DNA of 50,516 nt, from positions 664,670-715,185 of the forward strand of contig NW_027192206.1 of assembly GCF_041956535.1 (NCBI RefSeq), read 5' to 3'. Positions 14,168-41,429 of the stretch are shown one piece after another (the stretch's first letter is position 1; every line of letters starts with the position of its first letter). Both the position numbers and the translations under genes were made by a program. The notes beneath the pieces are model-generated. The model worked only from the letters and a program-made list of their open reading frames with translations, searched no databases and was not told the origin of the DNA. Origin of the DNA: Calcarisporiella thermophila CBS 279.70 (taxonomy: Eukaryota > Fungi > Calcarisporiellomycota).

Positions 14168-16077
14168 CGAAGACAATTAATGCACAAGGGAGCCAGTATA
14201 TCTAGCATAATATCATATAGCAAAATCTTCATTTTATTCAGTTATCTTAATTATATGTAATATACCACCTCAAGTAATAAATAACCAGCACTTTCATAGC
14301 CTCAATACAATCCAAATCATTGCAATTCAAAGTGAATTTTTTTTTGGTGCCTCCATGCTGCAACCACCAGGCAGTAATTGCTCCATTTTTACGCTCCCCT
14401 ATGGCAAGTGGTATGGCACCAGTCAAACAATTACCAGGATCAATATGATCGCTTCTAGATACTCGCAATAGCTCTGATGCCCATTCACTGCAGCCTGTCA
14501 AACTTATACTGTGCTGACTTTGATATACAGATGTAGTACATGGGTTATCATCAAAATTTCTTTCCGATAAATGAGATTCTGCAAGCGTCTAGGTGAACCA
14601 AAGAGACTCGCTATTTTCCAATAATCCTTTAATGGGCCTCGAGCTACCATTACAGTGCCATTAGGTAGAGCCTGCTTAAGAGTGTCCAGCATAATTGTTG
14701 CTGCATCCTTCGCAGCCATTTTTCCGCCTTCTAATTCACACCTCAAGTACGCACATGGTGGCTTAATTGGCAGCTGTAGAGCATGCAGATTCTTGTTTAG
14801 TCGGTGCCACAATTTTTCTGGCCAAGATGTTTTGCAGCTACAACGTCCGCCCAATGTGAGAACGATCCACAATGCGAGAGGGAAAGATTTAACGACAGGT
14901 TTGACTACCTCCAATAGATGCGCAGATTTCACATATTTAAGCTTGTCTTGTCCCAAATCTGTTGTAATCTTCATAGTGTCGTTCCATCCAAGTATAATAT
15001 GTGCGGTTTGTGCCATACACTCAACACATGCTATTGCAGACCGACGCAACTTGCTATTATAGACATGATGTAACCCCCCTACGCTCAAACAAGCGTGAGG
15101 ATAACCTATCCATGCATATTGAGCAGCTGTATCGACCACCCATACTGGGGGACGCCTATACCATATCTCGGATAGTAAATGTAGGAAAAAACTCCCAATA
15201 TGGGATGCTCTACTATACCCAGCTTCGGCTGCACCATCACTTAGTAATTGCATGAATCTACCCGCACAGGATCTTATTGCTGTTTGCACCGGATGACCAC
15301 CTATTGTGACATGGGCTCTGCATGCTGCATATTGCCATCTGATTAACGGCGAGCCGGTGCGTGATAACCTCGCAGCATTGAGGGTAATTCTAGCCTGCAG
15401 GTTTGATGTCCTGTAGTTAACATTCGGCCTAGTATCCTCCAGTTGTTGTTCATGTGACGATCGTTCTATATCTAGTAGTATCGATCTCTGATAGCCACGT
15501 GAATCAGGAGGATCAATGATAATTCCACACTCCAGATTTATTGACATGCACACCATGAATATTCCCCCGGATACTGCGAATACACAGGTACGCCAATGCC
15601 AAGGGCCACCATACTCACGGCTTGCTGCCAAAGTAGATTGCCATGAGCAGTGATAAACCACCTACCCGCAGCCTTGCTCATCATCAGAACCGTGGCATCC
15701 CCTGGCTGTATAGACGTAAAGTAATGAAGTGCAGTCATTCCGCCACCACGTTTGCAAGGTCCTCCAGGGAACTCTTGCGCGCGCGAAGGCCTAATTTGGA
15801 TGATTTTGCGCGTGACTTGGTCGAAAAGTATCCCGTCTCCTCTTGGCTCCCACCGCTCACTCTGAACGCAGACGGGTAATAATCCATTTTCTTTGCCTTC
15901 AGAGGCCAGCCATACCGGGTCGATGTTGGAGGACGACCAGGCATGATCTAAGTCTGAATAGTCGTTGTGTTACGACGATTATTTCATACTTATACAAATA
16001 TGTATAAGCATGTATCTTATCATCATTATTAGTCATCATCACCTATTCTATCATATATATAGGATGTGCTTTCTCTC

Positions 16078-16664
16078 TTTTGAATTCCTTTGGTGTGTGT
16101 TATTTGTGTTATCCCTTATGACTGTTTTTCATTCCTTTTTATCAATATACTCTTATTAAAATCCAACAGATCAAGAGTCTCATTAACTATATTGCGCTCA
16201 CGTAGCAGGGCGCGCATACGCAGCGCCATCCATTCGTTCGATTGTTATGCCGGGTGGAGCGAACTATACGGCATAGGCGCTGCGTATGCGCGCCATGCTA
16301 CGTGAGCGCAATATNNNNNNNNNNNNNNNNNNNNNNNNNNNNNNNNNNNNNNNNNNNNNNNNNNNNNNNNNNNNNNNNNNNNNNNNNNNNNNNNNNNNNN
16401 NNNNNNNNNNNNNNNNNNNNNNNNNNNNNNNNNNNNNNNNNNNNNNNNNNNNNNNNNNNNNNNNNNNNNNNNNNNNNNNNNNNNNATGCCGGGTGGAGCG
16501 AACTATACGGCATAGGCGCTGCGTATGCGCGCCATGCTACGTGAGCGCAATATAGTTAATGAGACTCTTAATCTGTTGGATTTTAATAAGAGTATATTGA
16601 TAAAAAGGAAAGAAAAACAGTCATAAGGGATAACACAAATAACACACACCAAAGGAATTCAAAA
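16078..16664. repeat. 150-bp inverted repeat (arms 16078-16227 and 16515-16664)
   Basis: The arms are reverse complements with 3 mismatches by eye. The loop holds a further TATGCCG/CGGCATA hairpin. Confidence 0.92.
16315..16485. other. Assembly gap (171 N)
   Basis: Run of N flanked by an identical 68-nt sequence on both sides (16247-16314 = 16486-16553). Confidence 0.97.
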
Positions 16665-17694
16665 TTAAAATCAAAAAGTCGGGCACATACCTATGTTGTG
16701 GATCTAAGCACCTGTCTATTTTACACTCTAATAGTTTCAACACCTGCGGATGAGGTGGACGGGGTGGCCTCAGCGCACAGTCTTCATTCCCTGGCTGATC
16801 CGGAGTCAAAATTTCCTCTTCCCAACCTTCAGTGCCGGGCACAATCTCGTCACCTTCTTCAAAGCTTTTTCATTCCAGCTGTCCTCTTCTCCAGTCCACC
16901 AGTCTGACATGCTCTCGAATGATCGTGCCTGCATCACTTCAGATCCTTCAGTTATATCTGCTACCTCCGGATCAGTTGCCCCTGAATTAGAAGGTGTACC
17001 GCTAGAATATATCACCTCCTGCAAAGGATCCTGAGTGCACTCATCATTCAATTTCATCGTGGCATCATGATCTTCGTCGTTCCATATTCCTTCGTTGAAG
17101 CCATTCAAAGCATCCACCTTCTGTAATTGTGCCACTGGCGAAGAGACTGGTGTGATCGCTGCTTGCGACACTAGGAAAGCGGCTGGGTTAGGCCATATAT
17201 AATGGTTCAATTGCTCTGCGTTCATTATTGGATCATATAGCCTACGAGTAAGTATACAATAAACCGATCTAGATGACGTCTGTGCAAAATAATGTCTGGA
17301 GAAAGGGTGAAAATTTCTTTAGTAGCGAGCAATTTTTACAGAAAACTTTGTTAAAGTGGCATATTTTCGAGCACTTCGATGCGGTGGATAGAATCGTAGC
17401 AAAGAGGGTTTGTGATCTAGAATAGAGTAATAGCCTACGTAGAATGTTCGACTAATGTAGCTATTTCAAGTTAGATGAACTAGAATATTTCGGTTGGGTA
17501 GGCTACAGAAAAAAAAATAGCGGGAACAAAACTGGAAAAATCGAAGGAATATTACAAGTAAAAATAGCCTATATAACAACATCCATAACACTAGTGTCCC
17601 TTTTGGTCAAAGATTCATTTGAAGCCTTTATTATTGGTTTATCGTATTTACAGTCAACCTATTGCTGTTTTAAGGGTTGTACACGTTCGATTGT

Positions 17695-17753
17695 ATGAAA
17701 AATCGGTTATCATGATTAGAAAAACTTTCTAATCATGATAACTGATTTTTCAT
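17695..17753. repeat. 28-bp palindromic hairpin, possible MITE core
   Basis: ATGAAAAATCGGTTATCATGATTAGAAA-AAC-TTTCTAATCATGATAACTGATTTTTCAT, one mismatch. Confidence 0.8.
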
Positions 17754-19934
17754 TTTAGCTTAATTATTTAATAATCAAGCTAATCATGTGTCGCCAGTTC
17801 CTTTGGTTACTCACTTTTGATTTCGCGTATTTGCTGTTTGATTTTCTCATTCAAAGTATATTATCCCAGCACATCTTTTTGTGGATCCATTGTAGATTCA
17901 ACTCTACTTTTATTTCAACCCACTGGAGCATGAGAAAATTGCTGCTCTTTAAATCCCAGCAGAAATATTACTGATCCGTACTGTTTGATTCGAAGAGGAC
18001 GGTTAAGCTGAATGGGAATATGGATATTAAAAATAAAACCCACACACATTACTACCTGATTAAGGAAATCCAGATGGAGTTAGGATATTTTATATTTTGA
18101 ACAGCGTAGCGGAATATATTACCCCCAGTTTGGTTTTAAAAATAGAATATTACTATTCTAGATATCGGGACTTCTTCTATTGTGAGTTCTGCATTCAATT
18201 GCTCAAGCTTTCGAATAGGAAAAATTCATTGTAATTACCTAGTTAGATTAGCATTCATTCCCAGTCAAATAATCCTCTATCAGTAGATGAAGGTCACAAA
18301 TCTTTGACAAACTCCTGGGTTGTGAATAATAGCGGATGCAAACAATTAGACAATTAACAATTAGATATTTCACGTTACTGCTTAAATTAATGAGATTTGG
18401 TGAAGTGATATGTTCTTTGATCGGCTATCTGATTCTCGTGAAAGTTACGATTGGAACCAAGAGTACTGATCTATATCACGCGGTCCTCAATAAGTGTACT
18501 CGCCGATTTGAACCGATCTCGTAATCATTATTGTTATCAGGAAAGGTGATAGGCAGGATCAGTTTATACATACAATTTCACTCTTATATGGAATCATGCT
18601 TTATATGTTCTACTATCAAACCGGGTATGGCAGTCACAAGATCACCACTAAATGCGATAGAGATGCAGACTCGGTTTTGGAAATCTTTCTATGTGCATTT
18701 GGTATACTCTTTCCAAAAATCGATGGATAAATGAATACAGCACAAATGTGCCCTGGGGAACTTGTTCTCTAACGAAGTAAAAGGCCTACGGTATCACAGT
18801 ATTGGCTTTATCCGATTTGACAGTGGTTTTACGGAAGAGGGTTTCAGATTGCATAAAAAGGCTCCCAAAATTAGAGCTTGCATCACGACAGGGAATGGTG
18901 GTAAACTGGTAAGTAGAATGTCCGCTCTGATCTTAGGAGGGCTGAGGATTTACTGTACGTCCACAATGTCACTATAACTCAATGAAGTCCAAACGGCAGT
19001 ACTTTTCTATCAAATATTCATCGATCTTTCATATGCTTTTTTACTTTTAATTACCTAATGTTCATGCACTTACTCAACCATGTATTTGTGCTTATTTGTG
19101 CTTATTTGTGTTTCGCCTCCATTATATAGTTTGTGCCTTTGGTTTATCTCTCGTCACTTCTTACTTTGATTTAAGTAAAACAAATTCTCAAGAGTCGTTG
19201 AAATAATATTATGCGTGATTTCTATTGAAATTATAATTGAGATCGGGGACAATAATACTACATAAATTAAGGAGCTAGGATGAGTGTAAAGTATATTGTA
19301 TATGTGTTTTTATGGTTAGATTTAATACTTAATCGCCTTTTGTAATTAGAATGACTGTTGTACCCAACTAAAGATTATTACGATAATGCTACTACGTAGA
19401 GGGATGAACCACCCGAGTCTTACAAATCTAAGCCATGGCTTTGACGCCTAAACTTACCCCAACCCATTCGATGTTAACGATACTCTATGCCACTGTTATA
19501 ATAATTAGGAACCAGAGATGGGTGAAAAGTTGGATCTCTTAGGTTAGAAAGTAACCTAAGTAACCCAACCATCACATAAATTCTATCATAAAATCTTCTC
19601 CCCAATAAACATGGTAAAAGAAACTATTATTATTAAAAATCAGCCTAAGTAACTCACCCAATTTTAATCTGCGTTACCATAATATACTAATTTGGTATCA
19701 TCCCATCCATCTTTTTGAGGCTTTGCTTTTTTGAGTCAGTCATTATATGAATGAATACTTTTCTCGTTTGACCGCAATCTACAGCCAAAAGTGAGGATCG
19801 AATAATTTTTGTGCCTCAGAAAGGATACAGTTCATTTCGTGAAATAAAAGGTATCCTTTCTTAGGTCAACATTAATAAACAAGATATTCAAAAATATAAA
19901 GTTCGAATAAAATTATTTATCGAAATTTCACAAG

Positions 19935-21665
19935 CTAAGTGCGCGAGCAGTTAAGATCATCGGTCCAATCCTCACTACCTACACAATGCCAGCACGTAAA
20001 CAGCCCTTGAGGATCAACTGAATTTTTAATTGCCTTGAGCCGCGGATAGTTTGCACCAAAGTAGGATTTTTGCCATTCTGGATCATTAGGATCGGATTCA
20101 TTAATATAACAGCCGGAATCAGGTGTAATATCCTTGAGTAACTGCGTTGCACGTGTTGTTGCTTCGTTCCGGCGACCAATTTCTTCCATCGTAGCATTAT
20201 CTTCCCAGCTACTCACCATGATAACATGCAATAGTGCCTTTCGCCATGCAGGATTAACTGAAGTTTCATTGTTATTATTCCTTGCAACGGCTCCTCCGGC
20301 AACTAAATGGCCAATAATCAACTTGTCAGTAAGCGGCGCCGTCAGTACTTTTATGAGGGTATCCGATAATTGATCGAGTGAATCATCAGTTTCGAAATTA
20401 CTCCTTGGGATCAGCCTTGATCCAGAAGCTGCGTTGCCACCCACGGGATCTGTGCACAAGGTATTGTTCATACATTTGGTAGTAAAATACCAGCTGGTGT
20501 AGTTGGGAAATGCAAACATATTTCCAAAGAGGACAGAAAGTCCTTGGTGATTATTTGCAAACGATACTAATGGCGAGAAGGATGAGTTAGCTTGAGACAT
20601 GTTGGCTATCGGATTAAGATAAGCAATAGCGGTCATTTTTTCCATAATATAAAAATAGCCTGCCCATCCAGCATCCGACATTGAAGGTTGTAGTCTCATT
20701 AATTCCCGCGTCAGATCCCTAGTGCTGGCCGTATCATTCGTTTGAATGCCGTAGAATGCAGCTATTACACCATTGGGTTCCTTGTAAGTTTTTAGAGTCG
20801 CTGACACCACAACACCAAAAGTGCCGCCACCTCCACCACGCAATGCCCAAAATAAGTCTTTATTCTGGCACGAGTTTGCAGTGCGCAATTTTCCGTCCGC
20901 TGTGACGACTTTATACTCCAATACGTTATCTGAGCCCAATCCATGGAGAGGAGATATCGCGCTATGACCTCCGCCTTGAACATAAGCACCAGCTGCACCC
21001 ACAGTCTGCGATGAACCACCCACCACGACCAAACCGCGCTCCCCGGCTGCCCGATACACATCACCAAATTGAACGCCGGCTTCCACCGTGATAGCTGAGT
21101 GTGGTTCGAAGTTCTTGCAGTTTTCAGGGGTGAACTGGTCGTGGAAGGTGATATTTCTGAAATAATGGGTCCAGATGCTAAGTGCACCTGAAGCCGTGCT
21201 ACGGCCATGTCCTGAGGACTTTACTACTAAACGAAGACGCTTTTCTGCTGCAAATACAACCGTTTTCTTGATGTCCTCGACATTGCTGACATTCACTGCA
21301 TATACAGGAACAGAACCTTGCAAGCAGGGTGTATTTTTATCTGTGTCGAGAGCACATCCTCGATCACCATCCATTTCCAAGGAAGATTTCTGCATGGCTC
21401 CTACATGGTCACTACGCCAAAAAGAGTTGTTGCGATTTAGCTTAGCTAGTTGGCATGCCCCCTCATCGTAGTGTGGCTCGTGGCAAGGAAATCCAGGGGG
21501 TTTCGGCATTAGCAATCGACCACCAACGGACACATTGAAGCTATTCCATTCATTGGGACTTGGCCAGCAATCGCTGTTAGGCAAACAGCGACATTGAAGT
21601 GATGCGTGGGAAAAGAGGTGAGATGTGAAAAAGTATATAGAGATAAATGCAAGATGTTTAAACAT
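19935..21665 (-). CDS. Secreted FAD-linked oxidoreductase (FAD_binding_4 + BBE-like), intronless, 576 aa
   Basis: Signal peptide, CRCLP..CWP, VQGGGHS, LFWALRGGGGGTFGVV, YINESD...YFGANYPRLKAIK..DPQGLF. The FAD-attachment motif reads SGHGRS, 3 residues short. Confidence 0.92.
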   Translation of the reverse strand: MFKHLAFISIYFFTSHLFSHASLQCRCLPNSDCWPSPNEWNSFNVSVGGRLLMPKPPGFPCHEPHYDEGACQLAKLNRNNSFWRSDHVGAMQKSSLEMDGDRGCALDTDKNTPCLQGSVPVYAVNVSNVEDIKKTVVFAAEKRLRLVVKSSGHGRSTASGALSIWTHYFRNITFHDQFTPENCKNFEPHSAITVEAGVQFGDVYRAAGERGLVVVGGSSQTVGAAGAYVQGGGHSAISPLHGLGSDNVLEYKVVTADGKLRTANSCQNKDLFWALRGGGGGTFGVVVSATLKTYKEPNGVIAAFYGIQTNDTASTRDLTRELMRLQPSMSDAGWAGYFYIMEKMTAIAYLNPIANMSQANSSFSPLVSFANNHQGLSVLFGNMFAFPNYTSWYFTTKCMNNTLCTDPVGGNAASGSRLIPRSNFETDDSLDQLSDTLIKVLTAPLTDKLIIGHLVAGGAVARNNNNETSVNPAWRKALLHVIMVSSWEDNATMEEIGRRNEATTRATQLLKDITPDSGCYINESDPNDPEWQKSYFGANYPRLKAIKNSVDPQGLFTCWHCVGSEDWTDDLNCSRT

Positions 21666-22398
21666 TTTGCAATAGAGAGGGCCTATATCAACTTAGATTA
21701 AATCGTTTTTCACACGATTTACTGTGGCAAATGCTTAATACTTGTAGAAAGTTTACTAAATGTATAACGTTGCACTGATAAAAATCGAAAGGAATGTGTG
21801 TAAAAGGAGTAACTGTTTTTAAATGGAGTGTGAGTATTTCAACCGTCCGATTGAAACATCGATTTTAAGAAATTGATTTCTTAATAAGGAAACCACAGCC
21901 TCGTCAGTGGTTACGGTTACACAGCGCAGCCAAGTGCAATAGAATATTTCCTAGAACTCTGCTTGACATCATATAAATCGATATGCCAAGATATAAAAGA
22001 AAGTTTTCTTGGTTCTATTCCATTGTATCAGTTCAAAGAACACGGTCCAGCATTTTTTATCATTTTCATTAAATCACATATAAAATCATATACTATATTA
22101 ATTATTAATTTATGCCAAGTTATGACTCAAGAGTGTTTGTTTGGTTCTCTTTCAGTCTGCCAGTCCACAAATAAAAATTAGTAATCTCAAGAGAGTACAA
22201 TTTGCACCGATCGCGATATACGGTAAATCAAACTCTCATACATAATCAAATGTAAACGAGGTATTTAATGCCTATAAACTCTGCCTTAATTTTTCTTGCT
22301 GAAAAAATATACAATAAAAACTCTTCTGTGTTTATATTTGACAAAATTTACAATCAAGTGCATACTTCAGGAAGGATGGCTAAAAAAAAGACTCCCTG

Positions 22399-24971
22399 TC
22401 AATTCAAGTGCCCAACCAAATGTTGGTCATCAAACATCATGCTATTTGAGCCAGTAGTGAAAGCATTGACATCTTGTAACATCGTGAGAGGGCTATGCGA
22501 TGTGGGTGAAGCGGAGCGAGGAGATTGATATAACGTATCCTCAGACAAGAGGTTATATAATAAGGACTGAATATTCATACCAGTGAGTGTGTCCGGTATC
22601 GGATCTATGGATTTTGATTTTTCAACGAAATATATATCCGTCTGTGGGATTAAGGAGTACACATCGTTTTTTTTCTCCAACTGTAGTGATATGGAAGCAG
22701 AGGTTGGTGTTGTGTTCGCTGATTTGTTCATCTCCATGCCGGAACAATAAGTATGACAAGGTCCTGACTCCCCAGGCATTGGGAAAAGTGTCATCCTATT
22801 TTGTTGAGTTATATCGGCTTCCCGATGTGATATTTCTCCTGTTGTCAACAGGCTGATATCTATTTGGTATCTCTCCACTAACTTAGTCGATTCCTCCTGT
22901 ATACTCTGTAGTATTGAAAGAGTAGGACCTGCCATTCCCCAATATTGTTTCATACGCTCCAATAATATATACGCGCGGGCTAACGATTCTCGACATTTTG
23001 CTGACACTTTAGGATCAGAGTTATCCACAAGCTGTATATAGACAGTGCCTGCCACATACACACAGCTGGCGGCATAATTGGTAATTCCATATAATTGTTC
23101 TATGCTCAGTCCCCACAGTAAATCCATGATCGTATTAGCAGCGCGAATGCAATTTTCAGTTGAAGCGTTTGCCAGCGAACTAAGTGAAAGTTTTTCTTCC
23201 CCGGTAATGCGTGAATACCTTCGATATAGTAAAATGATTATCATACAATAAAGTGAATGCATCAGCACAAAACGCTCATTTTTCCTCTCCAATTCTATTT
23301 TGTAACTCTGTTCATTGAGTTGAAGATGCTCTGGTAGAGATCGTTGCCATGACGAAATTAATGTATGCAGTTTTGTCAATTCGATGAGATGAGTGTGCGA
23401 ATTGACGGGAAGATCGCGCCTAACAAATTTCATCACCCGACCAAGAAGTGCAAAAATTCGAACAAGTTGCGCCAAAGAATTCATATCTGCTGTGCCTAAT
23501 TGTGGCGGGGAAATGCCTTGCTTATTTATGTATAAATTTTCGGTAAGAGTTGGTTGTTCCAGTTCGTAATTCTTGTCATCTGTTGGAAGTTGCACATTAC
23601 AGTCTCGATCATCGATAGTCTGTATACGTCCTGTAGCAGCGGAACAAATCCGATCCATTAAGAAACATGCCCAAAAACACCTCCGGCGTGTTTCCTTTTC
23701 AATCCAATTGGATTTGTAGGAGATAGGCTCATCTACATGCCATTGCTCGCGATTCATACCAAGCTCTTGCACCATTCTATTAATTTAATTATATTAAAAT
23801 TTATAATTGGCAGATTTTTACAAACCGAATATTTACCTTATTGCCATTCCTAGCCACAACCAGGATCGGAAACCTTTAGCACATCCAAGATCATCGACTA
23901 CAATGATCAACATAGCCTGCACAGCAGATAATGTCGGTCGATCCCAGGCTCGTGAAATCAAGTCTCGTGCACGCAAAGCAAAGAGTTCTCCCGCCAGATA
24001 CTGAGAATGCGATTGTAGTTCAGGTCGCTTTGAAAAACTAGTTAATTCACAAGAATGAGATAACACTAAAAAATAAAAAAGTCAAATCATAAAGGGGCTA
24101 TTTACCGTGCAGATATTGCCAAGACGCTAAAGAGCAACATAGGTGGAATTCGATTCGTTCTCAACTCTTCCATGAAGGTTGGTCGATGAAGTATAGGCAA
24201 GGTAGGCCACATATATTTGAAAAAGTGCGTTACTAACTCCTCGACCAAATCCTGCGGTAGCTGTTCCATATTTAGGGGCGAGCGGGGAATAGAGAGTTTT
24301 GATTGTGCTAACAAGAGGCTATTCTCGGAATGGGCTGCTTCTTTAATAGCTAAGGGCGTGTCATTTATCTCTGTTGATAGTTCTTCAGTACTCATTTCTA
24401 GTGAGGATAATGTACTCTCAAACAACAAGTGATTCGCTTCGATACTATCTGATATAATGTCAAAGCTTATTGAATCGTATTCGCTCCCAAATGTATTGTT
24501 ATTATGGCAAGCTTCTGAATTGTAATTTCCAGTACTCTGGTTCGTTTGAATATTCACCCTGTTGGTGTTGTATTCGATCGATGATTGCGGAATCAACATA
24601 TCTTCTGTTAAGAAGTTTTCAGGTCTTGTCGAGAAGTTCGGCTCAATTGCGACCTCTGGCAATTGATTTTGGCGGGTATACTCATTAACAGCGATCAACT
24701 GCTTGTTAGAAGTCTGGTACTTTTTCAACAGATTTTCCATTCGTTCCAAGCGCTTCACGAGCTTATCAATAGAATCATTACGTGAGCCGCGTTTTTTGTT
24801 GGTCTGGTTATACACACAATCAATTCAAGAGTATAGACAACTGCTGCATTGTGGTCTTCCGCCATCGCATTTTATTTTCTTTCTTCGACATGAATCGCAC
24901 GCCACCGCAAGGCGCCCTCGTTTTTTTGTACCCTTAGCACGATCTTTAGTTATGGTGGGATTTGCGTTCAT
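22399..24971 (-). pseudogene. Zn(II)2Cys6 + fungal MHR transcription factor (814 codons) with one in-frame TGA
   Basis: [30 protein letters not shown], with the stop at 24825-24827. Introns 24038-24105 and 23777-23836. MHR motifs LPILHRPTF and ETRRRCFWACFLMDR. Confidence 0.85.
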
Positions 24972-25993
24972 TTAATGTCTAAGCCGTACTACATGATGAT
25001 GAACGATAAAAAAAATGGACAGTGCAATCACTTCAAAATAAAGCAATGAATTTCTCGCTTTAAAAGAGCCAAAGGATTAGGATAAATGTTGAGATAATGA
25101 AACGGGGATATTGACCTTGATACAATTGAACTGCCCTCTATAAGCTCCATAACCCAGGTTTTGCCGAGATTTTGTGACTGAAAAATGAGATTTATTATTA
25201 ATATTTAAATACTATTACTAATTAAATGGATCAATATTTGAATATTAAAGGTTAAAATCTCTATTTCTTAATCAAATTGAACATATAGTTTTGTGAATTA
25301 GGCTTCAAACACATACCCACGTGAAAAGGAAATCTAGGAGGAAGAAAATAAATAAATACCTGCCCAAAAGTGCATTCAAAAAATTCTCTCGACAACGATA
25401 TAAGTTTTGGATTTTGCGACTTGTTGAAGTGCAATTGAGCTGCAAGTATCAATCAAATGGTTAAGTGCGTTCCTAGCTTAGTTTACTAACTATTTTTACT
25501 TTCATTTAAAATCTCACAATAATAAACTCTGTATTGAATTTATCGCATCACTCGCAAGATTTTCCGTTTTATTATACAAGTCATTGTGTAAGTAGGGATA
25601 ATATTAATTTTTTCACGTCAATTATACAAAAATGAGTAAGGAAAGATTATCATTAACTCATAATATGATGCATATTGTCTGTGATGATTTCCCTAGGTGC
25701 TAATGCAATTTGTTGAATACAACATTCACTGATTTCGAGAGAAGTCATTTTTTTAATTTATTGTTTCTCCTCGCAAGGCTAAAGTTACAATCAAATTAAT
25801 ACTTTATGCTACCGTGAAGCAGCACCGTATACATGAATGAAATTGAAAGTGTTAGAATAATGGATATCATATCATAATTTCTTGAACAATTATGGCTCAT
25901 TTAAGTTCACCTTAGAATTTCATAATTAAATATTGGATATATATGTACAGGAAATGGCTGAACATTATGTAAGTAACAAAATAGTTACTTATC

Positions 25994-26886
25994 CTACATT
26001 TCAAAGGGCCCAGTCAGGCGTATATTTGAACTTGGAGCTCTGACAAATTTTATAGCGGTTTTTTGTGTTATAATACCATGCGATTTGGGTCTGGTAGTCT
26101 TAGGTGCTTGATTTTCGGTTGATTCATGGTCAAGTGCGTTGAATAATGAGAGCCTTATCACAGAAATGGCTAAGTTGATGCCTTTGAATTCAAAGGCAAG
26201 AGACTAATAAGACATAGGTATTAGAATTAAACACCTAGCCCTACGCTCATTAAAATATCTCACTTGTCCGATGGAAAAAATTTGATCATAAAACTTCTAA
26301 TAAATAATAAGAGATGAAAGGTTGAAGATTGAAATCCATATAAATTTACATGAGAAATAGCGTATCAGATTATACCGAGCAGAATGCCTGAGCTAATTCC
26401 TTCGTATCAAATGGATCCATAGTCGTGGAGTTTCTAGCCAGAAAACCCACTTCTAATTCCATATTACCAATATAAATAGCATCGTTTTCAGAGAGAGGAT
26501 CGTATGTTTGCACCGATATTTCCTGCATAAGTGAGACGCCTGCCCATTTCCTATGTGGGTTGGAAAACGCCAAAGTTCCAGGCTGTATTTGCTCATTCGG
26601 GCTTTTTCAAGAAATAAAGAAATTTCTAAATTATTTACAATAAAGTTGTTGAACCTATTGACATTTACCAAATTGTGAAAATATACTGTTCATCCACTAC
26701 TATATATTGAACCCTGCGATCAAAATCGCTTGGTGCCACATAAACATAATTTGAGAGTGCCATTGAGTTACTAGGAGATTTGCGTACTTGCATCAGAATT
26801 TCTTTGGGAGGTAGCGACAGATTATGCTTGAAATGACCGTTAGTAGATGTGGTGTTATGAAAGTTCGATCGTTGACTATTCTCCAT
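25994..26886 (-). CDS. SEC18/NSF paralog encoding only the N-terminal domain (228 aa, 4 exons)
   Basis: KSPSNSMALSNYVYVAPSDF, NPHRKWAGVSL, ELEVGF, FYDQIFSIGQ, GIITQKTAIKF. Introns 26602-26668, 26297-26375 and 26204-26263 keep frame. A TAG follows and no AAA D1/D2 domain is recognisable downstream. Confidence 0.75.
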
Positions 26887-27579
26887 TTCGTAATTTGTTT
26901 ATATGGTTCTCGATTATTATATGACCACGTATTTGAATCAAAATTCTGAGGAATTGCCAAGGTTGCTGCGCACAAAGTGTAGGCTTGACGCTTGGCTTTT
27001 TGAATAATAATTTAGAAATACTAATGATTGTGTGGCCGCTTGTGGCTCGTTCATTTGTATAGAGGGTTACTGCTTCAGGTCGCACAACAGAATTTATAAT
27101 TAAATAAACATATTGAATATAAGACAATTCCTTATTTCTACTCGCTCCATTTAACTTCATTTTTATCTTCACTCTTCTACCCATACCCAAAATAAACCCA
27201 CTAACATTTTCAATTGAAAGGAGGCATTATAAAAATGTTGCATGCTACTACAGCTATAAACAAATTCCTAGTAGATGTTGGAGAAATGCGTATATCTCTC
27301 ACTAATCGAATTTCCTGCTTTAATGCAGGAATAGCGTGATACCGAACTCTAGAAATTGGACCATTTTAGAATAAAAATCACCAAGAATGCACATATTAAC
27401 TCTCAATTATTGCACTTTGCAGCTTTGAATCGACCGCTATCCCCCGTAAAGTCAAGGTAATATTTGCTCTATCTTATCTACAACGACCTCTATCGATAGA
27501 GCAAAGTGTTGCTGCCATCCTTTTCTCTATGTTATCCTTTCTATTCAATTCCAACTTATGTCTCAAATTCAATTCCAAA

Positions 27580-29316
27580 ATGTACTGGAGTATATATCTA
27601 ATTGCCTTGCGCCTCTGGGTTTTCCTGGTGCTAGCAGACACAATTTCAAAAAGGGGTTTGGCAAAACAAATCCCAATTTCAACTCACGATCGCATTTATG
27701 TTGAAGAACCAGATATCTTAACTAAGCAATCGGTGGACGATATACTCAGTATTGATAATAACTCAATGTAATTGAAGACATTTTTTGCGTCATTTAATCA
27801 TCTTTTATCATTAATTTTTAATCATTTTCGATAACAGCTACTCCTGGGATCGACTCGCAGAAATGACTGATCTATATGGCAGTAGAATTATCGGCTCACC
27901 ATCACTGGAAAAATCCATTGATTGGATAATTACTATTGCATCAAAGATTGATGGACTCACGGTGCGTACTGAGCCCGTTGATGTGTTCTACTGGAAACGT
28001 GGAGAAGAAGCCTTGCAGCTTCTTGCCCCTACAACGCGCAATATTAATTATGGCGGTGGGGATACACCAATTTCTCTTCCTGTAATCGGGCTCGGGAACT
28101 CATCAAGCACGGACAAAGAAGGTGTGGAAGGAGCGTTGGTCGTTGTTGGATCATTGGAAGAGTTTAATGCAGTGGATGTTAAAGGGAAGATTGTTCTCTG
28201 GAATGTACCATTCTCAACTTATAAAGACACAGTATACTTCAGAACATGGGGTCGACCTGCAGTTGAGGCCAGAGGAGGTATCGCGATGCTGATACGAAGT
28301 ATAACCCCTTTTTCTCTCTCGACTTTGCACACAGGAGCTACTCGTCATGCGAATATACCTGCTGCGGCAATTACTGTTGAAACTGCAGAGTTTCTTCATC
28401 GTATTTACAAGCGTTATGTAAATCGTGCAAATAACACCTCCATATACGCAAATGAATTTGTAGAACCTCGAGTTCGCCTTAAATTGATGAACACTCGCGA
28501 GCCCACAAAGAGCCGTAATGTTTTGATAGAATGGAGAGGACGAGAGTTGCCAGATGAAGTCGTCGTCGTAGGCGGACATATCGATTCTTGGGATGTTGGT
28601 ACTGGCGCAATGGATAATGCTGGAGGTGCCATTACAGCGTGGGAGGCAGTTAGACTAATCAGTCTATTGAAGCAGCCTCCTAAAAGAACAGGTACTGTAA
28701 ATTAATTGCACTGTTTAAAGAGTTGCCCGTTTCTTTTAACAGTGCAGAGTTGGACCCCTATCTATTATATTAACAGTTTGTTCTTATTAAATATATATTA
28801 GTACGAGCCGTTTTGTGGTGTGTTGAAGAGCTAGGCCTCGCTGCAGCTTATGCATACACTGCTGCTCGAATTAAAGACAACACTCTTCAAAAGCATATAT
28901 TTGCTATCGAAACTGATACCGGTATATTCCGGCCTTTTGGCCTCTTTTTTGCAAATCCGAACCAGACTCAAGTCTTGAACAAGCTCAAAGAGTATGGACA
29001 AGTCTATGGAAGGGGATATGATGGTTTTGAGGTAGGACAAGGCGAACCTGAGTATGATATCGAACCTCTTTGCAAAAGAGGCGTCATGTGTGCATCATGG
29101 CAAAGTTATGATGGACTATATCGCGATATCGAACCTAATCCTGCTGGTAATAGAGGATACTTTTATTGGCATCATACATGGGCCGATGACCCATCTATGA
29201 TGAACGCCACCGATATGGCCAATTCTGCCAAAGCCATGGCTGCTTGGGCCTTCATTATCGCTGAAATTGGGTTACCATCTAATAGTAATATTACCTCGGA
29301 TCCATTATCACCCTAA
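27580..29316 (+). CDS. Secreted M28 peptidase, carboxypeptidase Q/PGCP-like (3 exons)
   Basis: Signal peptide, WDRLAEMTDLYGSR, PA-like insert, metal-binding motifs GGHIDSWD, DNAGG, EE, ETD and YWHH. Introns 27768-27837 and 28692-28801. Confidence 0.92.
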
Positions 29317-30247
29317 AATTTGATTTGATTATGTATCTCTCAATTATGAGATACAAAGTACTCGGAGTGGTCGTATGGAATTCCAAATGTTGTTTCTAGT
29401 GAAATGTAAAATTTAATTTGTTGGTATAGATCGCCAGGTAATGGATCAAAGACCAAATAAAGAATTGAAAATTGTGAGAATAAAAAAAAATGGGCACAGA
29501 AAAAACATAGAGCGATTTAAATTATATAGGTCTTGAGTAGTATCGTGTGAATGAGGGATAATTTTCAATATAGCCTATATAATCAACATTGCTATTGGAA
29601 TATAATTCACTGGAATTAATCTCCAGATTAATCACCAGAAGCTTCTAAGATATTTCATTTATGGTAGTAGCTTCGACCAGAAAAGGGTTTAGCTTTTCTT
29701 TTGGACTCTATTATTTAAGATCCTGTTCCTCTTTCTCAATCATAGTAGGTTTCTAATCTTTCAGCTTTAGTGTAATCTCAATATATTTTTAAATTATTAT
29801 TTAGTATTTTATTACGAGTTGTTTAGGGGAAAAATTTTAACAGCTTGCTCAGTACTTCGGTGAAGAATAAGATACTGTATTTGAAAAATCACGGATAAAG
29901 ACGCGTGAAATTTCACGTTTTTGTGCTTTCATTTATAATGGCTCATTTCGCATGGATATGCATCATATAGCCTCTATTCACGGAAAGTTAAACTGCTAGA
30001 CTTTGTTATTAATAGTAGGGATTTACAGAGGTACGCGCTATTTGGAAATATATTTAGAAATTGTCGGAGTTCAATTAGCTCGTTGAAAATTTTTATTAGG
30101 TTGTGGCTTTGACGGCTTTTTCATTAGCTATTTTTTTACTGAATCCCTACTTTATTGCTATGGGGACTTTCAGGTCATGCAATTAAATTCTAGGTATAAG
30201 TAATCTGCCCTGCTATAACATTGAAATTGTTTATTTCATTTTACACG

Positions 30248-31694
30248 ATGAGTTCATCCCACTCATCCTATACTCATGGAAATATACACGCCAAGGATGG
30301 TGCATTCGTCAATTCTGGTATAATGAAGTTTCACGATTGTGAGAATGTTTATATGGGTAAGAGTTCTCGGATTTAAATAAAACTCATAACTTCTTTCATA
30401 TCATCGTTCTGGGATGTACTAGCGGGGTCCAATTCTTCCAAAGCAAAGGAGAGAAATAGTCAACTGGAAAATTCTAAAAAAGAGCGAGTGAATGTTCTTA
30501 GCATAGACGGCGGCGGTGTTCGTGGTATTGTTCCCATTACGGTTCTTGAAAATCTATATGAATTAACCGGAAAAGAGGTATAATTTTTGCTTCATAGGTT
30601 TTCCTGACTAATACAAAAAAATTAAATTCTGATTATTATTTTAGCCTTATCAGTTATTCGACTTGATATGCGGCACGAGCACCGGTGGAATACTGGCAAT
30701 TATGCTAGGTATTTTAAAAGTTCCTATCAAAGACTGCCGTACTATATACGAAGAACTTTCCAAGGAAGTGTTCGAGCGTTATGCCATTAAGAGAGCTATC
30801 AACTTTTTCTCATCTGGTGGTGTACGTCATAATGGTGATAATTTGGAAAGTTGCGCAAAAAGAATAATTCAACAGTATACTGGCGACGAAAACATCCAAA
30901 TGTCACAAGTACGCAATGCTATTAAGGTAAATTCAGCCGACTTATAATCATTTACCAAATTCATATAAAATGGGTATAATATAAGTGATATTTGTGGCCC
31001 GGTTCTATAATATTTGCAGGTGTTCGTAGTGGCAAATCAAGGAGAAAACCAATGTCTCGCCAACAAGAGGCTGTTTCGGAACTATAGTGTGTTTGATCCG
31101 GCTAAAGGGCCTGACTGTGCTGTGTGGCAAGCCATTCGAGCAACCTCAGCTGCACCTACTTTCTTCAAAGAAATCATTATAGGTACGTTGGTGACGATAT
31201 TGGATGCTGATTTTTAAAAATAATTTATAATCCTATGATCTTTCTATTTAGATGGAATCAAATATTTTGATGGAGGAATAGGCGCAAACAATCCATCCGA
31301 GATCGCCTTAGCAGAAACTGAAAAAATCTGGCCAGAGGCAAAAGTCAACTGTTTATTATCTCTAGGAACAGGAACAGCTCCCATCTCAGCCATAAATGCT
31401 GGGATCTATGGAATATCAAAATTGAAAACGTGGCTTCTGGATACGGCAACCGATTGTAAGGAGGTGGATATTAGGCTCAGACAATCTGGCCATCGATCAC
31501 TATCAAATTCTATAGACGAAAGTTATTTTCGTTTCGAGCTTGAAGCTGGAGCTGGAATTGGCGGGATGGACGATACAGCTATAATAAGAAATTTGAGGAT
31601 AGCTACTGGCGACTATCTCGCTCACCCAGCCCAGATGAAGTCTTTGGAAAATCTTAAAGTTCGGTTGAGTAAAACACCAGCTTCTATAATTTAA
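30248..31694 (+). CDS. Patatin-like phospholipase (383 aa, 5 exons) with an N-terminal amyloid-like extension
   Basis: DGGGVRG, GTSTG, RATSAAPTFF and DGG. Introns 30357-30422, 30578-30644, 30927-31019 and 31183-31251 give an intact frame. Confidence 0.92.
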
Positions 31695-32295
31695 CATCAT
31701 ATATTTGCATCAAATAGTTATCAACTTAACCGAATTCAAATATTTGATTCTTATTTATATTCAATAGATTCTAAATTCTCTACTAAAACTTAAGTGAAAA
31801 AAATAAATAAATAAAAAAGATTTCTTAGCCAAATAAATTAATGTAACTAGGGAGACTCAGTACTCCTCTTGGGTGAGAGCTCAAAGGGAATGAAGCTGAA
31901 TCCCTATCTACCACCCCCATATGAACAAGAGGCACAAATCCAGGATGCAATCAAAGGCTGAGGAGCAGAATAAGGAGTAGATTTTTTATTTTGTTTTGAA
32001 TTTACCACTACAGTGTATCGTTTACTTTGCATCAAAAGCAACCTAAGAAACTTATATTCTATATATATTTCATCTGTTTTTTTTTATTAGGCACCATGTA
32101 GTCTAATTCTGTATTAGCAGTTGTCCAGAGGAAAAATTTTATTTCAGTTAATTTTGTATATAGATTTTTATTTATAAAAATAGGAGCGATGAATTCCAAA
32201 AATATCAAATTAAAGCGTTTCAAAATAAATTAATAGAAGAAGTATGCATTATAACCTGTCATGCTAATAGTAACTCGTGCTAACAACCTCATAAA

Positions 32296-33087
32296 TCAAC
32301 TTTCTTGCCCTTTCAATATCCAGTTGCTCGTAGCCTCTCCAAACTTTCTTGCCCATTCGCTATCGCTTGCTAACTGCTTAACTGGATCTTTAACCGGAAC
32401 ATCCAAGCCTCGCTGCACCGCTGGACGCGATTCAATACGCTCGATCCAGGCCTTGAGATTAGGGAGGCCATCAATCGTAACTCCGGCCCAATGGTGAGCA
32501 CGAATCCTAAAATGAAAAGGAATTTACTTAGAGCCTATTGAATATACCTGAAGTCAATAAAATACCAACCACGAGTAATTTGCAATATCTGCCAAAGTAA
32601 ACTGTTCTCCAGCAAGCCATTGCCTCCCCTGTGAAAGATGTTTTTCAATCACTTCGTATAATCGCCTAGTTTCGTCTTGATATCTCTTAATTCCATACTC
32701 GATTTTCTCGGGAGAATATCTATAAAAGTAGGTGGCTTGGCCTTGCATTGGACCTATGCCTCCCATTTGAAACATAAGCCATTGCAGGACCTCCGAACGG
32801 GCATTCGGATCTTTAGGGTAAAGTTTTCCGGCGGGGTCATAATGCTCACATAGATAAACCATAATGGCACCCGACTCGAATACATTGAAATTGCCTCTCG
32901 AGTGATCAGTAAGTGCCGGGATACGCCCATTCGGATTTATCTTTGTAAACCACTCGGACTTTTGCTCTTTTTCAGCAAAGGAGATTGGCTTTACAATGTA
33001 AGGCAGATCGAGCTCCTCGAGAGTGATGGATGCTTTGTGGCCGTTGGGGGTCCCCGCAGTATAAAGAGTCAGGTTTGGAGTGGCCAT
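32296..33087 (-). CDS. Glutathione S-transferase, Ure2p/YfcG-like (2 exons)
   Basis: [38 protein letters not shown]. Intron 32507-32569. Confidence 0.93.
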
Positions 33088-34099
33088 GGTGTGCTTGCTA
33101 AACTTATTGATTCGATGTTTAGGTTTGGATGTGCTCATGTGTCTTCATCTTAGCCGCATATTATATACTGTGCAATCTATTTGTCAGCTCTGTGATGTGA
33201 AACCTGCGATCCATTAACGGTGGCAAATTTAGGGGATTGAATGGAGATTTAACTGGACAGGTTTCAAATTAGGGAGGGCTTACTTAATCAAGGGTCATTT
33301 GTAATCCTTTCAGTTTACTTGAAGCAGTCGATTTGGCATCCGTGTACATAGGAATTACTAATTATGCAAGTATTGCTAAAAGGAGAAAAATTAATTTGCA
33401 TTCGATTAAGAAATAAACTAAATGCTGTACAAAACTGAGGCTACGGCAACTCATTGTTTATGCACTCTGGATTTTGAGATCCATTATCTCCTACTCTTGT
33501 GTGGTATCCTTTCAGTGATTTCTCGATGAATCGGTGAATGTGAGCACGCCTTGTGGCTTCTATTATGTTATGACATCAGCTTTTATCGATTTCTTTTATA
33601 TTCATGTCTGTCTTTTTTCTCTCTTAATACAGCATGTCTTCTCGTAACAAGTACCAAATGAAATGGTGGGGAGCTAAATTCACTCGATCAACTAAATAAT
33701 TCTCGACTAACAAAGAAGTCTCATGTTAATACTACTTCATTTCACATTTCACATTACTCATCGTTGCATGATTCAAAAATATAGTTTAGTGCACTGCTAA
33801 ATTAGCCATAGAATGCGTCCGGGAACTTTTCTCCGCGATGTGTTAGCCGCTTACGCCGTATAATGAATCTAGAATAGAACCCCTAAAAAATTTAGACCAT
33901 GCTTTCGAAGTATTGAGGCAGAATAGTCAGAATATTGAAATTATAAAAACAATTCGGATGGGCAACTGATTTTCTAGAATATAACACTAGCGAGAGTGTG
34001 CAAACTAAGCTCAATAATGAGTGTCCGAATGAAGTATGACAATCAAATAAACATTGCTCTGCTGTACTGGCACAAGAGTATTGCTCAGGGCAAAATACC

Positions 34100-34822
34100 C
34101 ATTTAATGGAAGGGTTGTTTCTGGCAGAGGATCCAAACGATCGCTTTATTTGGATCCCAGTATCTACACGATTAGAGAAAAGGGCATCACATGTCGCCGC
34201 AACATATCAGAATAGCTTCTACAGTCCTTATACTTTTTTGAGTTTCAGAAGATTCAACTATTGAATATCTCAACAGGTTCCTGGAGTTCGGCCCATCGAA
34301 AAATGAGTAACCGCACCGAAACTTCACCCATCGAGCCACAAAGTTAGCGTCGTATCGCTCATGACAGACACAAATGGAGATGACAATTCCTAGGACCAGA
34401 AATGTGTCACAACACTATCCGTGTAGACACGGGGGCGGCTGGAATTGCCTACACTATCATCAGGCCATGCGCCCACAGGACGGCGTAAATAAAATAGGAC
34501 ATCAGCGTGCTCCAATTGCGCACATTTTGGGGCATGGAAGCACTGGATGGAGAGCCGTGATTCAGTACATAGCCACGGTCATCATCATGTGAATTTATAT
34601 CCAATGCCCTTACAAGTGTTCATGGTCTTCCATGTGACGGCCCATTACTGTGGTACCGGGGCTGTTATCGATTCACCTTCTCCCGCACCCCTAGAGCTTG
34701 AAATATCAAAAATACCTGCTTTTTTCCTTGAGGACAATCCAGCAAATCCCAGCCAGCCAGAACCCGCATGGAATGAGACGGCAGGATTTGAAATTGCAGA
34801 GGAAATATGGAAAAATAAGTAA
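34100..34822 (+). pseudogene. Diverged homolog (copy C) of the unknown family at 14247-17483
   Basis: Collinear matches to copies A/B: DPNDRFIWIPV ~ DPHHRYVPDPV, PCRHGGGWNCLHY ~ PCKHGGGMTALHY, ILGHGSTGW ~ IIAHDNLLW, CGTGAVIDSP ~ CGIIIDPP. Frameshifted. Confidence 0.65.
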
Positions 34823-35595
34823 ACTCGTATTCTAATATTTTCTTTGTTATTTTATTTTCTTTCTTTCTTCCTCTCGTATTCTGTTTTCCTCTCTCCTTAA
34901 AAAAAAAATAGGAAAGATATGCACACTCTCTGCACACCCCCCAACTCTTGCATGGCATTCTTGTTTTCTAATGTCTATATCCGTTATTAAGAACGAAAAA
35001 TGATACATTTTAATAAAGATCCTCCTAACAATAAAAAAGGGAAAATGGGTAAACTGGTGAGGTATGGGGTACACTAACCTAATTCTGCTAGCTTCTCCAC
35101 CATAATATAATCCAAGATAATCAAATTTATCAAAATAACAGAAAAGGCGTTAAAGCGGGAGAGAGAAGATATATATAGATACTCCTCAAAAGAACAATAT
35201 CCTTTTTTTGAAAGAAAGATGAGTTTTATTACAAAATGATGCTAAAACCGGAGATAAAATAATATAAACCCAATTTAATATATACTTTGACATAGCTTTA
35301 ATGGGCTTCTCAAAAAATTATTGATTTAAGTTGGTGCGGGGTCAAATGGTAAAAGCCAAGACTTTTTTGCTAATTATAGGTGTAACTGAGCATGTAGTTA
35401 CCTTAGGCGATATAAATGTATTATTACAAGGGATAAAGTATATTTCTTGTAGACGTCTTGTAACAAGTCAACCTTTCCTTGGTTAATATGTACTGGCGCT
35501 TATTTGTGCCACCTCAGTATAGATAGTAACTGAGAGTACGGAGTGCAATAAGACAGATTTTGTGAATGATCCTGTGACTAATATTCTAATACCCA

Positions 35596-36840
35596 CTAAT
35601 CGATGACAATCCCGCATCTCAGATTTAATGCACGTTGACATACACAGCATGAACATTCCCGTGGGTGGCGTTCATACACAGGTACGCCAATGCCAAGGGC
35701 CACCATACTCGCGACTTGCTGCCAAAGTAGATTGTCATGGGCAATAATAAACCACCTACCCGCAGCCTTGCTCATCATCAGATCCGTGGCATCTCCCGGC
35801 TGTATAGGCGTAAAATAATGAAGTGCAGTCATTCCGCCACCATGTTTGCAAGGACCCCCAGGGAACTCCTGCGCGCGCGGAGGCCTAATTTGGATGATTT
35901 CGCCCGTGACTTGGTCGAAAAGCATTCCGTCCTCCATTGGCTCCCACCGTTCACTCTGAACGCAGACGGGTGATGGTCCATTTTCTTTGCCTCCAGAGGC
36001 CAGCCATACCGGGTCGGGCACATACCTATGGTGTGGATCTAAGCACCTGTCTATTTTACACGCTAATAGTTTCAGCACCTGCGGATGAGGTGGATGGGGT
36101 GGCCTAAGCGCACAGTCTTCATTCCCTGGCTGATCTGGAGTCCAAATTTCCTCTTCCCAATCTTCAGTATCGGGCTCAATCTCGTCGCCTTCTTCCAAGC
36201 CGATTTCATTTCAGCGGTCCTCTTCTCCGGTCCACCAGTCTGACATGCTCTCGAATGATCGTGCCTGCATCACTTTAGGTCCCTCAGATATACCAGTTAT
36301 CTTCAGATCAGTTGCCCCTGAAGTAGAAGAAGGTATACCGCTAGAACATATCACCTCCTGCAAAGGATCCTGAGTGCACTCATCATTCATTTTAATCGTG
36401 GCATCAAGATCTTCGTCGTTCCATATTCCTTCGTTGAAGCCATACATTGCGTCCACTTCTTGTATTTATCCTATTGGCGAAGATACTGGTGTGATCGCTG
36501 CTTGCGACGCTAGAAAAGCGGCCGGGTTTGGCCATATAATTTTGTTCAATTGTTCCGCGTTCATTATTGAATCATATAGCGTACGAGTATGTACACAATA
36601 AATGAATCTAGATGGCGACTGCGCAAAATATTGTCTGGGGCGAATATTCGGAGAAAAGGTAAAAGGTCTTTAGTAACGAGCAATTTTTACAGAAAACTTT
36701 GTTAAAGAAGTGGTATATTTTCGAGCAATTTGATGCAGTGGAAAGAATCTTGGCAAGGAGGATTCGTGACCTAGTATAGAGTAATTGTCTACGTGGTAGG
36801 TTCGACTAAAGTAGCTTTTTCCAAGTTAGATTAACTTAGT
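35596..36840 (-). pseudogene. Unknown family copy B (5' leader + N-terminal ~320 codons, 3'-truncated)
   Basis: High nucleotide similarity to 15520-15923 + 16678-17483, without the LTR insertion. Two internal stops. Confidence 0.85.
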
Positions 36841-36858: not shown

Positions 36859-37091
36859 CTTGATCAGACATACTGTATTTAGAAACTGAAGGATCAAAGT
36901 TTCAGAAATTTCTGCAACTGTTAATATCTCCTTTAAAAATTCAAAACGTGTGTAATAATTTTCGAAGACATATTTACATTTCTCAACTTTCATCGTCAAA
37001 TTTTTATACCTGTTATATACCAATTTATAATACATTTTATATCTTTCTTTTATATATAATGTCTCTTTCCACTTCCATTCCCCGGTTGTTT
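36859..37091 (+). repeat. ~235-bp promoter + start-codon module shared with 48762-48995 (opposite strand)
   Basis: TGATCA.A.ATACTG.ATTTAGAAA...ATCAAAGTTTCAGAA...TGTTAATATCTCCTTTAAAAATTCAAAA...TCCATTCCCCGGTT occurs in both copies. Confidence 0.85.
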
Positions 37092-40882: not shown

Positions 40883-40929
40883 TTTGGGTTTTAGATCCCC
40901 TAAAAATTTTAAGGGAGCTAAAACCCAAA
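40883..40929. repeat. 23-bp palindrome, possible MITE remnant
   Basis: TTTGGGTTTTAGATCCCCTAAAA-A-TTTTAAGGGAGCTAAAACCCAAA, two mismatches. Confidence 0.7.
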
Positions 40930-41142: not shown

Positions 41143-41424
41143 AAAGCACAGATTAAATAAATTTTATTTAATCTATGCTTTCCTATCTAGACTATCACTA
41201 TATGTACACGCATCAAATGATGATGTCACCCAATGGTCACAAATATAACCATCTAAAATTATAACAGTCCGTTACAGTTCGTGTTTTGAATTTTTGTTTT
41301 AGATAGTTCTTATATTTGTGACCATTGGGTGACATCATCATTAGATGCATGTACATATAGTGATAGTTTATATATATGAATTAAGCAAGCGGAACTTTCT
41401 CCTATCTTAACTATCCTAGTAACA
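41143..41424. repeat. Stacked inverted repeats in an LTR-like segment
   Basis: Hairpin 41143-41181 (19-bp arms) and 58-bp arms at 41191-41248 / 41310-41367 (2 mismatches). 41304-41424 is directly repeated, diverged, at 42858-42980; both copies end ACTATCCTA...AACA. Confidence 0.8.
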
Positions 41425-41429
41425 GCGAC

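What the first reader, a model, noticed from the sequence alone, without database searches (positions are those of the whole stretch)
14247..36840. Three broken copies of an unrecognised intronless gene: candidate repeatedly endogenised mycovirus segment
Seen: copy A (14247-17483, minus) rebuilds to ~740 intronless codons. Copy B (35596-36840, minus) shares the coding region and a ~260-nt 5' leader whose homology stops abruptly near TAGTT(C/A)ATCTAACTTG. Copy C (34100-34822, plus) is a distant homolog ~770 bp from B, convergent. In a 33-codon stretch (AQEFPGG...ATxLM) 6 of 9 A/B differences are synonymous, so they diverged while functional, yet every copy is now broken. Known: non-retroviral RNA virus sequences occur in fungal nuclear genomes, often near retroelements. 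Inference: separate integrations of related monocistronic virus segments (long UTR + one ORF, as in multisegmented dsRNA mycoviruses), or an undescribed mobile gene family. I could not name the protein and saw no RdRp motifs.
Basis: partly seen in the sequence, partly recalled or inferred. Interest (0 to 1): 0.8.

Follow-up and report, generated by a model that had tools for sequence, protein, structure and literature searches.

The report
Dead orphan gene family, possibly viral
An early-branching fungus carries four broken copies of a long intron-free gene for which no relative was found in any other organism; it was likely picked up from an unknown fungal virus and then likely copied around by the host, but nothing yet proves the viral origin.

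Summary
Copies A and B are 86-87% identical over a sharply bounded 256/275-nt leader and 322 codons. A spans 740 codons, broken by three frameshifts and a 755-bp foldback insertion. B has two stops and ends early. C matches only over 34410-34664 (about 30% identity). A fourth copy, broken to judge by its gene model, lies on another contig. The host is Calcarisporiella thermophila, named by database records of its own gene models. No relative outside this genome was found in any protein, virus, metagenome or structure search. A's lack of stops in 739 codons still suggests a coding period. No viral hallmark, terminal repeat, target duplication or structured leader was found. Three of four copies within 23 kb favours host duplication over separate integrations. 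Best reading, by exclusion only (0.36): one virus-derived gene multiplied by host duplication, then decayed. Rivals: native orphan family (0.30), unknown transposon (0.17), separate integrations (0.12). A central RNase-H/DEDDh-like domain is a weak, post hoc hint.

The parts
17226..17481 (-). Copy A 5' leader, 256 nt, 36% GC, shared with B up to a sharp boundary
   Evidence: 35 mismatches in 255 aligned nt; folds no better than shuffles (z +1.38)
16678..17225 (-). Copy A coding part 1: ATG, acidic N-terminal region, start of the Cys/His-rich domain; one frameshift near 16860
15923..16677 (.). 755-bp insertion splitting A: 4-bp direct repeat on both sides (15919-15922, 16678-16681), 150-nt inverted arms 98% complementary, N gap 16315-16485 flanked by a 68-nt exact duplication (true length uncertain)
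   Evidence: no Rfam match inside it
14247..15922 (-). Copy A coding part 2: shared Cys/His-rich domain, frameshift near 15545, 385-codon stop-free frame, inferred frameshift near 14580, last 108 codons and stop
14980..15511 (-). Part of A with a weak, post hoc resemblance to DnaQ-type (DEDDh, RNase H-like) exonucleases
   Evidence: glocal profile score z 2.65; 3 of 600 shuffles and 4 of 145 natural segments score as high; no HMMER, Pfam or fold hit
36562..36836 (-). Copy B 5' leader, 275 nt
   Evidence: fold z -1.22, 20 of 200 shuffles as good
35596..36561 (-). Copy B coding remnant, 322 codons, in-frame stops at codons 33 and 117; homology to A ends at its last stop
   Evidence: downstream DNA does not align to the rest of A (94 of 100 shuffles as good)
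34410..34664 (+). Copy C, statistically supported homologous core (85 codons, two in-frame stops)
34106..34822 (+). Possible full extent of C (first ATG to last stop over several frames); homology outside the core not shown

Best explanation
These are broken copies of one intron-free, roughly 740-codon gene that was likely captured from an unsampled fungal RNA virus and then likely multiplied by the host's own DNA duplication. Shown: four related copies in one genome (A-B about 80%, D 48-69%, C about 30% amino-acid identity), breaks not shared between A and B, a common sharp 5' boundary, no relative found elsewhere. Inferred: a viral RNA with its leader was reverse-transcribed by a host retroelement and integrated once or a few times; local duplications gave A, B and C and a dispersed one gave D; copies stayed under weak selection for a time and then decayed independently. 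Weakest step (about 15%): the protein would have been a nucleic-acid-binding protein with a zinc-binding Cys/His domain and an RNase-H/DEDDh-like domain, acting on RNA (packaging or silencing suppression).
For: No relative outside this genome: 1 hit, its own gene model, among 1.84 billion representatives for the 385-aa frame; 4 hits, all this species' contigs, for the N-terminal profile. No intact long copy among annotated proteins (0 hits of 675-2000 aa; only P0001 at 358-2000 aa). All four copies are broken (D's gene model reads partly in A/B off-frames). A and B decayed symmetrically (10 A-private, 8 B-private residues of 127 with D as outgroup). Some coding constraint: omega 0.60-0.64; 0 stops in 739 codons of A against 5.3 expected if half the A/B divergence were neutral (P 0.0025 by simulation). 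No transposon ends. Three of four copies within 23 kb, beside other local paralog pairs. Ty3/gypsy-type reverse transcriptase and RNase H debris 4.5 kb from B (Pfam RVT_1, RT_RNaseH). Precedent: tandem, highly diverged capsid-like copies after one totivirus integration in yeast (PMC2805616); endogenous RNA-virus genes in Mucoromycota (PMC7482067; PMC12548735).
Against: No direct evidence of a virus: nothing in viral contigs by protein or leader pattern, no BFVD fold match, no conserved leader structure (0 of 40 pairs compensatory), no poly(A) run within 450 nt of A's stop. The published Mucoromycota cases are recognisable polymerases; this is not. The selection signal is borderline (345 of 5000 neutral simulations as silent), and the zero-stop test uses frames chosen for being open. 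Host genes here can also be long and stop-free (585 and 461 codons). The species is an isolated lineage, so orphans are expected. An arenavirus-type nucleoprotein lead failed. The whole genome could not be searched.
Confidence: 0.36

Rival explanations
1. A native, fast-evolving, lineage-restricted gene family under birth-and-death evolution whose members have all been lost to relaxed selection; no virus involved.
For: Clustering of A, B, C; the window holds other paralog pairs (FAD oxidases 47-64%, trypsins 31%); GC 0.46 and GC3 0.41 lie within the host range; lone early branch (PMC10079182); paralogs already at 30% identity would hide distant orthologs.
Against: 4 of 4 known copies broken and no intact annotated copy; 740 codons without an intron; no known domain. 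The codon test has no power: an off-frame control scores the same as A (0.027 vs 0.029).
Confidence: 0.3
2. Remains of an undescribed DNA transposon: the gene is a transposase with an N-terminal zinc-binding region and an RNase-H-fold core, the leader boundary is the element's end, B is a deletion derivative.
For: Fixed 5' end in A and B and the same start codon in D; all copies dead; size and Cys/His domain fit transposases (general knowledge); weak RNase-H-like signal.
Against: No terminal inverted repeat within 1.7 kb downstream of A (best 10 of 14, reached by 72-100 of 100 shuffles) and no convincing target duplication; no transposase or CxC/KDZ Pfam hit on 12 sub-segments; no relative among 1.84 billion representatives, although transposase cores usually find relatives; only four copies seen.
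Confidence: 0.17
3. One reading: each copy is a separate integration of a related monocistronic virus segment, and the divergence built up in the viruses.
For: Unrelated flanks, sharp 5' boundary, unshared breaks, a ladder of divergence, omega below 1.
Against: Independent insertions would rarely put three of four copies in 23 kb and two 773 nt apart; omega near 0.6 is far above what replicating viral genes usually show (general knowledge); no segment-end signal or leader structure.
Confidence: 0.12

Closest known systems
Endogenous totivirus capsid-like gene families of Pichia stipitis and Debaryomyces hansenii (Taylor and Bruenn 2009, PMC2805616; abstract, part 1 of 5 and passages read)
   Same: Several tandem copies, some very diverged (amino-acid p-distance 0.755), attributed to duplication after one integration, with purifying selection.
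   Different: There the viral source is shown by sequence and a polymerase gene lies alongside, and selection is significant; here no viral relative exists, selection is borderline and all copies are broken.
Endogenous Curvulaviridae-like RdRp genes of Mortierellales and Phycomyces (PMC7482067 passages; PMC12548735 section 13)
   Same: RNA-virus-derived genes in Mucoromycota nuclear genomes.
   Different: Those are recognisable RdRps conserved across many species; this has no RdRp match and is confined to one genome.
ORFan RNA segments of mycoviruses (PMC7724248 passages)
   Same: Virus segments whose proteins have no detectable homolog exist in fungi.
   Different: They were shown as replicating RNA without a DNA copy; here only chromosomal DNA is seen.
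DnaQ-type DEDDh exonucleases and the arenavirus nucleoprotein exonuclease domain
   Same: A run of motifs in the expected order in A 14980-15511, with the first acidic pair and a later Asp-Thr aligned.
   Different: Scores are at the edge of chance, the last catalytic Asp is not matched, and the nucleoprotein comparison failed.
KDZ (Kyakuja, Dileera, Zisupton) DNA transposons (PMC12730594 passages)
   Same: Cys/His-rich region ahead of a possible RNase-H-like core (resemblance recalled, by eye).
   Different: No Pfam hit; no terminal repeats or 8-bp target duplication; no natural KDZ sequence could be fetched for a direct test.

Membership tests
Non-retroviral endogenous viral element (RNA virus) | Sequence or structural homology to an RNA-virus protein | tested here: inconclusive
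   No hit; models were low-confidence (pLDDT 38 and 51) and pattern scans reach only close relatives
Non-retroviral endogenous viral element (RNA virus) | Embedded in host chromosomal DNA | tested here: met
   Flanked by host genes on a 736,877-nt contig; junctions not checked with reads (none listed)
Non-retroviral endogenous viral element (RNA virus) | No introns | tested here: met
   A and B colinear over 322 codons; five stop-free frames cover 739 codons of A; no transcript seen
Non-retroviral endogenous viral element (RNA virus) | Phylogeny nesting the copies among viruses | not testable with these tools
   No outside relative to build a tree with
Segment of a multipartite dsRNA mycovirus | Terminal sequence shared with other segments or a polymerase segment | tested here: inconclusive
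   Leader found only in A and B within the window; 0 matches in viral contigs; genome not held
Cut-and-paste DNA transposon | Terminal inverted repeats and target-site duplication | tested here: not met
   A's 3' end may be lost, and only 1.7 kb downstream was examined
Cut-and-paste DNA transposon | DDE/D transposase domain | tested here: inconclusive
   No Pfam hit; weak RNase-H-like signal only
DEDDh exonuclease (DnaQ-like) | Significant match to a family profile | tested here: inconclusive
   hmmsearch and hhalign negative, but true DEDDh controls also scored at chance there; glocal z 2.65 against 2.3-3.3 for 3 true controls; 4 of 145 natural segments as high
DEDDh exonuclease (DnaQ-like) | Four acidic residues plus His conserved | tested here: inconclusive
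   First Asp and Glu aligned, last Asp not; the alignment itself is uncertain and the gene is decayed
Arenavirus-type nucleoprotein | Match to a profile of 37 natural nucleoproteins | tested here: not met
   No HMM hit; hhalign 17.7 vs shuffle max 22.5; glocal 11 of 150 shuffles as high
Native paralog family | An intact member or orthologs in relatives | tested here: inconclusive
   None among annotated proteins; no close relative's genome available

The most novel reading that the evidence does not exclude
The copies are the fossil record of a fungal RNA virus lineage never yet sequenced, whose 740-residue non-polymerase protein joins a zinc-binding domain to a DEDDh-type RNA exonuclease fold, a combination our one literature search did not find described for mycoviruses, and which the host kept and duplicated for a time as an antiviral decoy.
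Probability: 0.1. Interest if true: 0.7.

Novelty: new member of a known kind. Interest (0 to 1): 0.33.

Why it matters
If viral, the four copies give a search handle on a virus group invisible to present databases, from the earliest branch of Mucoromycotina, and a second case of a captured virus gene growing into a host gene family. If native or transposon-derived, it is an unnamed protein family and a reminder that the annotated 'uncharacterized proteins' here are artefactual models spliced around pseudogene breaks. As it stands the origin is unproven and every copy is dead, which limits the interest.

Tried and rejected
Searches with no outside relative: Pfam, PHROGs, NCBIfam, PDB sequences, ESM Atlas, phages, plasmids, viral contigs, metagenome contigs, genome contigs. 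L045, the 1 of 127 metagenome candidates passing tblastn, was rejected: a GC-rich bacterial contig where the match straddles the start of a small membrane-protein frame and is driven by the seed words. Folds from single sequences were too poor (pLDDT 37.9 and 50.9) and their searches gave only generic bundles or ferredoxin-like folds; a family not listed is not excluded. By-eye leads, all recalled: arenavirus nucleoprotein exonuclease (rejected); FtsJ-type methyltransferase (no Pfam or fold support); KDZ transposase (no Pfam hit; the pattern scan fetched 8 loci, none recognisable as KDZ on inspection); DnaQ-like (inconclusive). My first dN/dS (0.47, Fisher p 0.0015) ignored transition bias and is superseded. 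Leader structure (71-73), terminal complementarity and an internal deletion in B, TIR/TSD: not supported; a 9-nt repeat around B also occurs inside C and was treated as chance. Codon usage: no power. Sequencing runs: none was listed, no evidence either way. Rfam: only chance hairpin matches. Earlier findings: nothing for this genome or sequence.
Full report
1. What is there. Self-comparison of the window shows A and B as two blocks, 86.2% over 825 nt and 86.8% over 418 nt. Between A's blocks lies a 755-bp insertion (15923-16677) with a 4-bp repeat on both sides, 150-nt inverted arms and an N gap. Without it A measures 740 codons, carried by five stop-free frames with frameshifts near 16860 and 15545 (seen against B) and near 14580 (inferred from overlapping frames). 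B has 322 codons, stops at codons 33 and 117, and no homology past its last stop. No break is shared. The leaders (256 and 275 nt) differ at 35 of 255 aligned sites, about the synonymous rate, and end sharply; upstream flanks are unrelated. C matches over 85 codons only.

2. Host and further copies. The only hit among 1.84 billion representatives to A's 385-aa frame is a gene model over A itself, named Calcarisporiella thermophila by NCBI/UniRef. A profile search returned 4 proteins of 7996 candidates scored: models of A, B, C and a fourth copy D on a 491,667-nt contig. D starts at the same ATG, is 48-51% identical in the N-terminal part and 69% in the shared domain; its model reads partly in what are off-frames of A/B, so D is likely broken too (DNA not seen). 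No protein of 675-2000 aa matched the C-terminal frame (0 of 3815 candidates) and only P0001 of 614 candidates matched B at 358-2000 aa, so no intact copy is annotated. The genome itself was not held.

3. Selection. Simple counting gives omega 0.47; with the substitution spectrum held fixed, 26 of 81 changed codons are silent against 19.6 +/- 3.9 expected, reached by 345 of 5000 simulations; a codon model gives omega 0.60-0.64, p 0.034-0.066. A has no stop in 739 codons where 2.0, 3.4 or 5.3 are expected at neutral rates of 0.02, 0.035 or 0.055 per site (P of none 0.14, 0.03, 0.0025), with the caveat that the frames were picked as open. With D as outgroup A and B carry 10 and 8 private residues of 127. 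Reading: part of the A/B divergence was under constraint, much of it neutral, on both sides.

4. What the protein is. No library or collection named it; the one metagenome candidate was spurious. Layout from the sequence: acidic N-terminus, a Cys/His-rich domain shared by all copies (16 invariant columns), then about 420 residues seen only in A. Single-sequence folds were unreliable and matched nothing specific. I tested recalled resemblances with natural sequences fetched by tool. Against 37 arenavirus-type nucleoproteins (of 44 loci; 7 dropped by length) the C-terminal part failed. Against 80 DnaQ-like exonucleases (79 kept of 115 candidates, plus P0005), A 14980-15511 scored z 2.65, like 3 true DEDDh controls (2.3-3.3), with 3 of 600 shuffles and 4 of 145 natural segments as high; a negative control reached z 2.06 against the other profile. 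The region was chosen by eye, so this is a hint only. A KDZ transposase resemblance found no Pfam support and could not be tested directly.

5. How the copies spread. No terminal inverted repeat, target duplication, terminal complementarity or conserved leader structure. Three of four copies lie in 23 kb, two of them 773 nt apart, in a window that also holds FAD oxidase and trypsin paralog pairs, a second two-copy element and LTR-retroelement debris. That favours host DNA duplication. Composition is host-like but uninformative (one of 15 host reference frames was entered out of frame).

6. Origin. Against a native family: all four copies dead, no intact member, 740 codons without intron or known domain. 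Against a transposon: no ends and no relatives. Non-polymerase virus proteins are the class most prone to having no relatives (PMC7724248, passages), RNA-virus genes are known in Mucoromycota genomes (PMC7482067, passages; PMC12548735, passages and section 13), and one integration followed by tandem divergence is documented (PMC2805616). This makes capture then duplication the most likely single story, at 0.36, ahead of native (0.30), transposon (0.17) and separate integrations (0.12). These odds are judgement, not computed results. The species is sister to the other Mucoromycotina (PMC10079182, passages), which weakens every argument from absence.

7. Literature. Nine searches listed no paper on viruses or endogenous viral elements of this species; the two virus papers checked hold its name 0 times in the main text. 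Supplements were not read and could list it. One earlier finding (e1-10720118) concerns an endogenous RdRp in another fungus; it adds context only.

8. Verdict. Interest 0.33.

Noticed in passing
window 15923-16677: Foldback insertion with a 4-bp target repeat and 150-nt inverted arms that start 155 nt inside one end and 13 nt inside the other; unclassified small mobile element, partly collapsed in the assembly.
   Followed up: partly
window 41419-41712 (-), 42308-42529 (+), 41786-42108 / 43023-43342: Reverse transcriptase and RNase H fragments on opposite strands (Pfam RVT_1, RT_RNaseH) with an 84% inverted duplicate of the adjoining region and a 190-nt hairpin at 41184-41374: rearranged LTR-retroelement debris.
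   Followed up: partly
window 36860-37091 / 48760-48995: A second two-copy element, 81% identical, inverted, each running into a short similar reading frame; one copy starts 23 nt from B's 5' boundary, head to head. Shows that a shared upstream block with a sharp end is not unique to A/B.
   Followed up: partly
window 37285-38150 (+) and 49119-50269 (+): Decayed P-loop NTPase genes (weak P-loop hits; AAA-ATPase_like); they recall Crinkler-type genes (recalled; no Crinkler Pfam hit).
   Followed up: no
window 17695-17753: Near-perfect 28-bp hairpin about 215 nt upstream of A's leader boundary; similar hairpins at 19814-19865 and 40883-40929.
   Followed up: no
P0001, P0002, P0003: The public gene models for A, B and D appear to splice around stops, frameshifts and the insertion and read partly off-frame; they are unlikely to be real proteins.
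   Followed up: partly
window 44627-45247 (+): 206-codon Ala/Glu-rich frame with no Pfam match.
   Followed up: no
window 1987-3378 / 19938-21665 and 4236-4985 / 39591-40424: Local paralog pairs: FAD/BBE oxidases and trypsins, one trypsin intron-free with GC3 0.69, far above its neighbours.
   Followed up: partly
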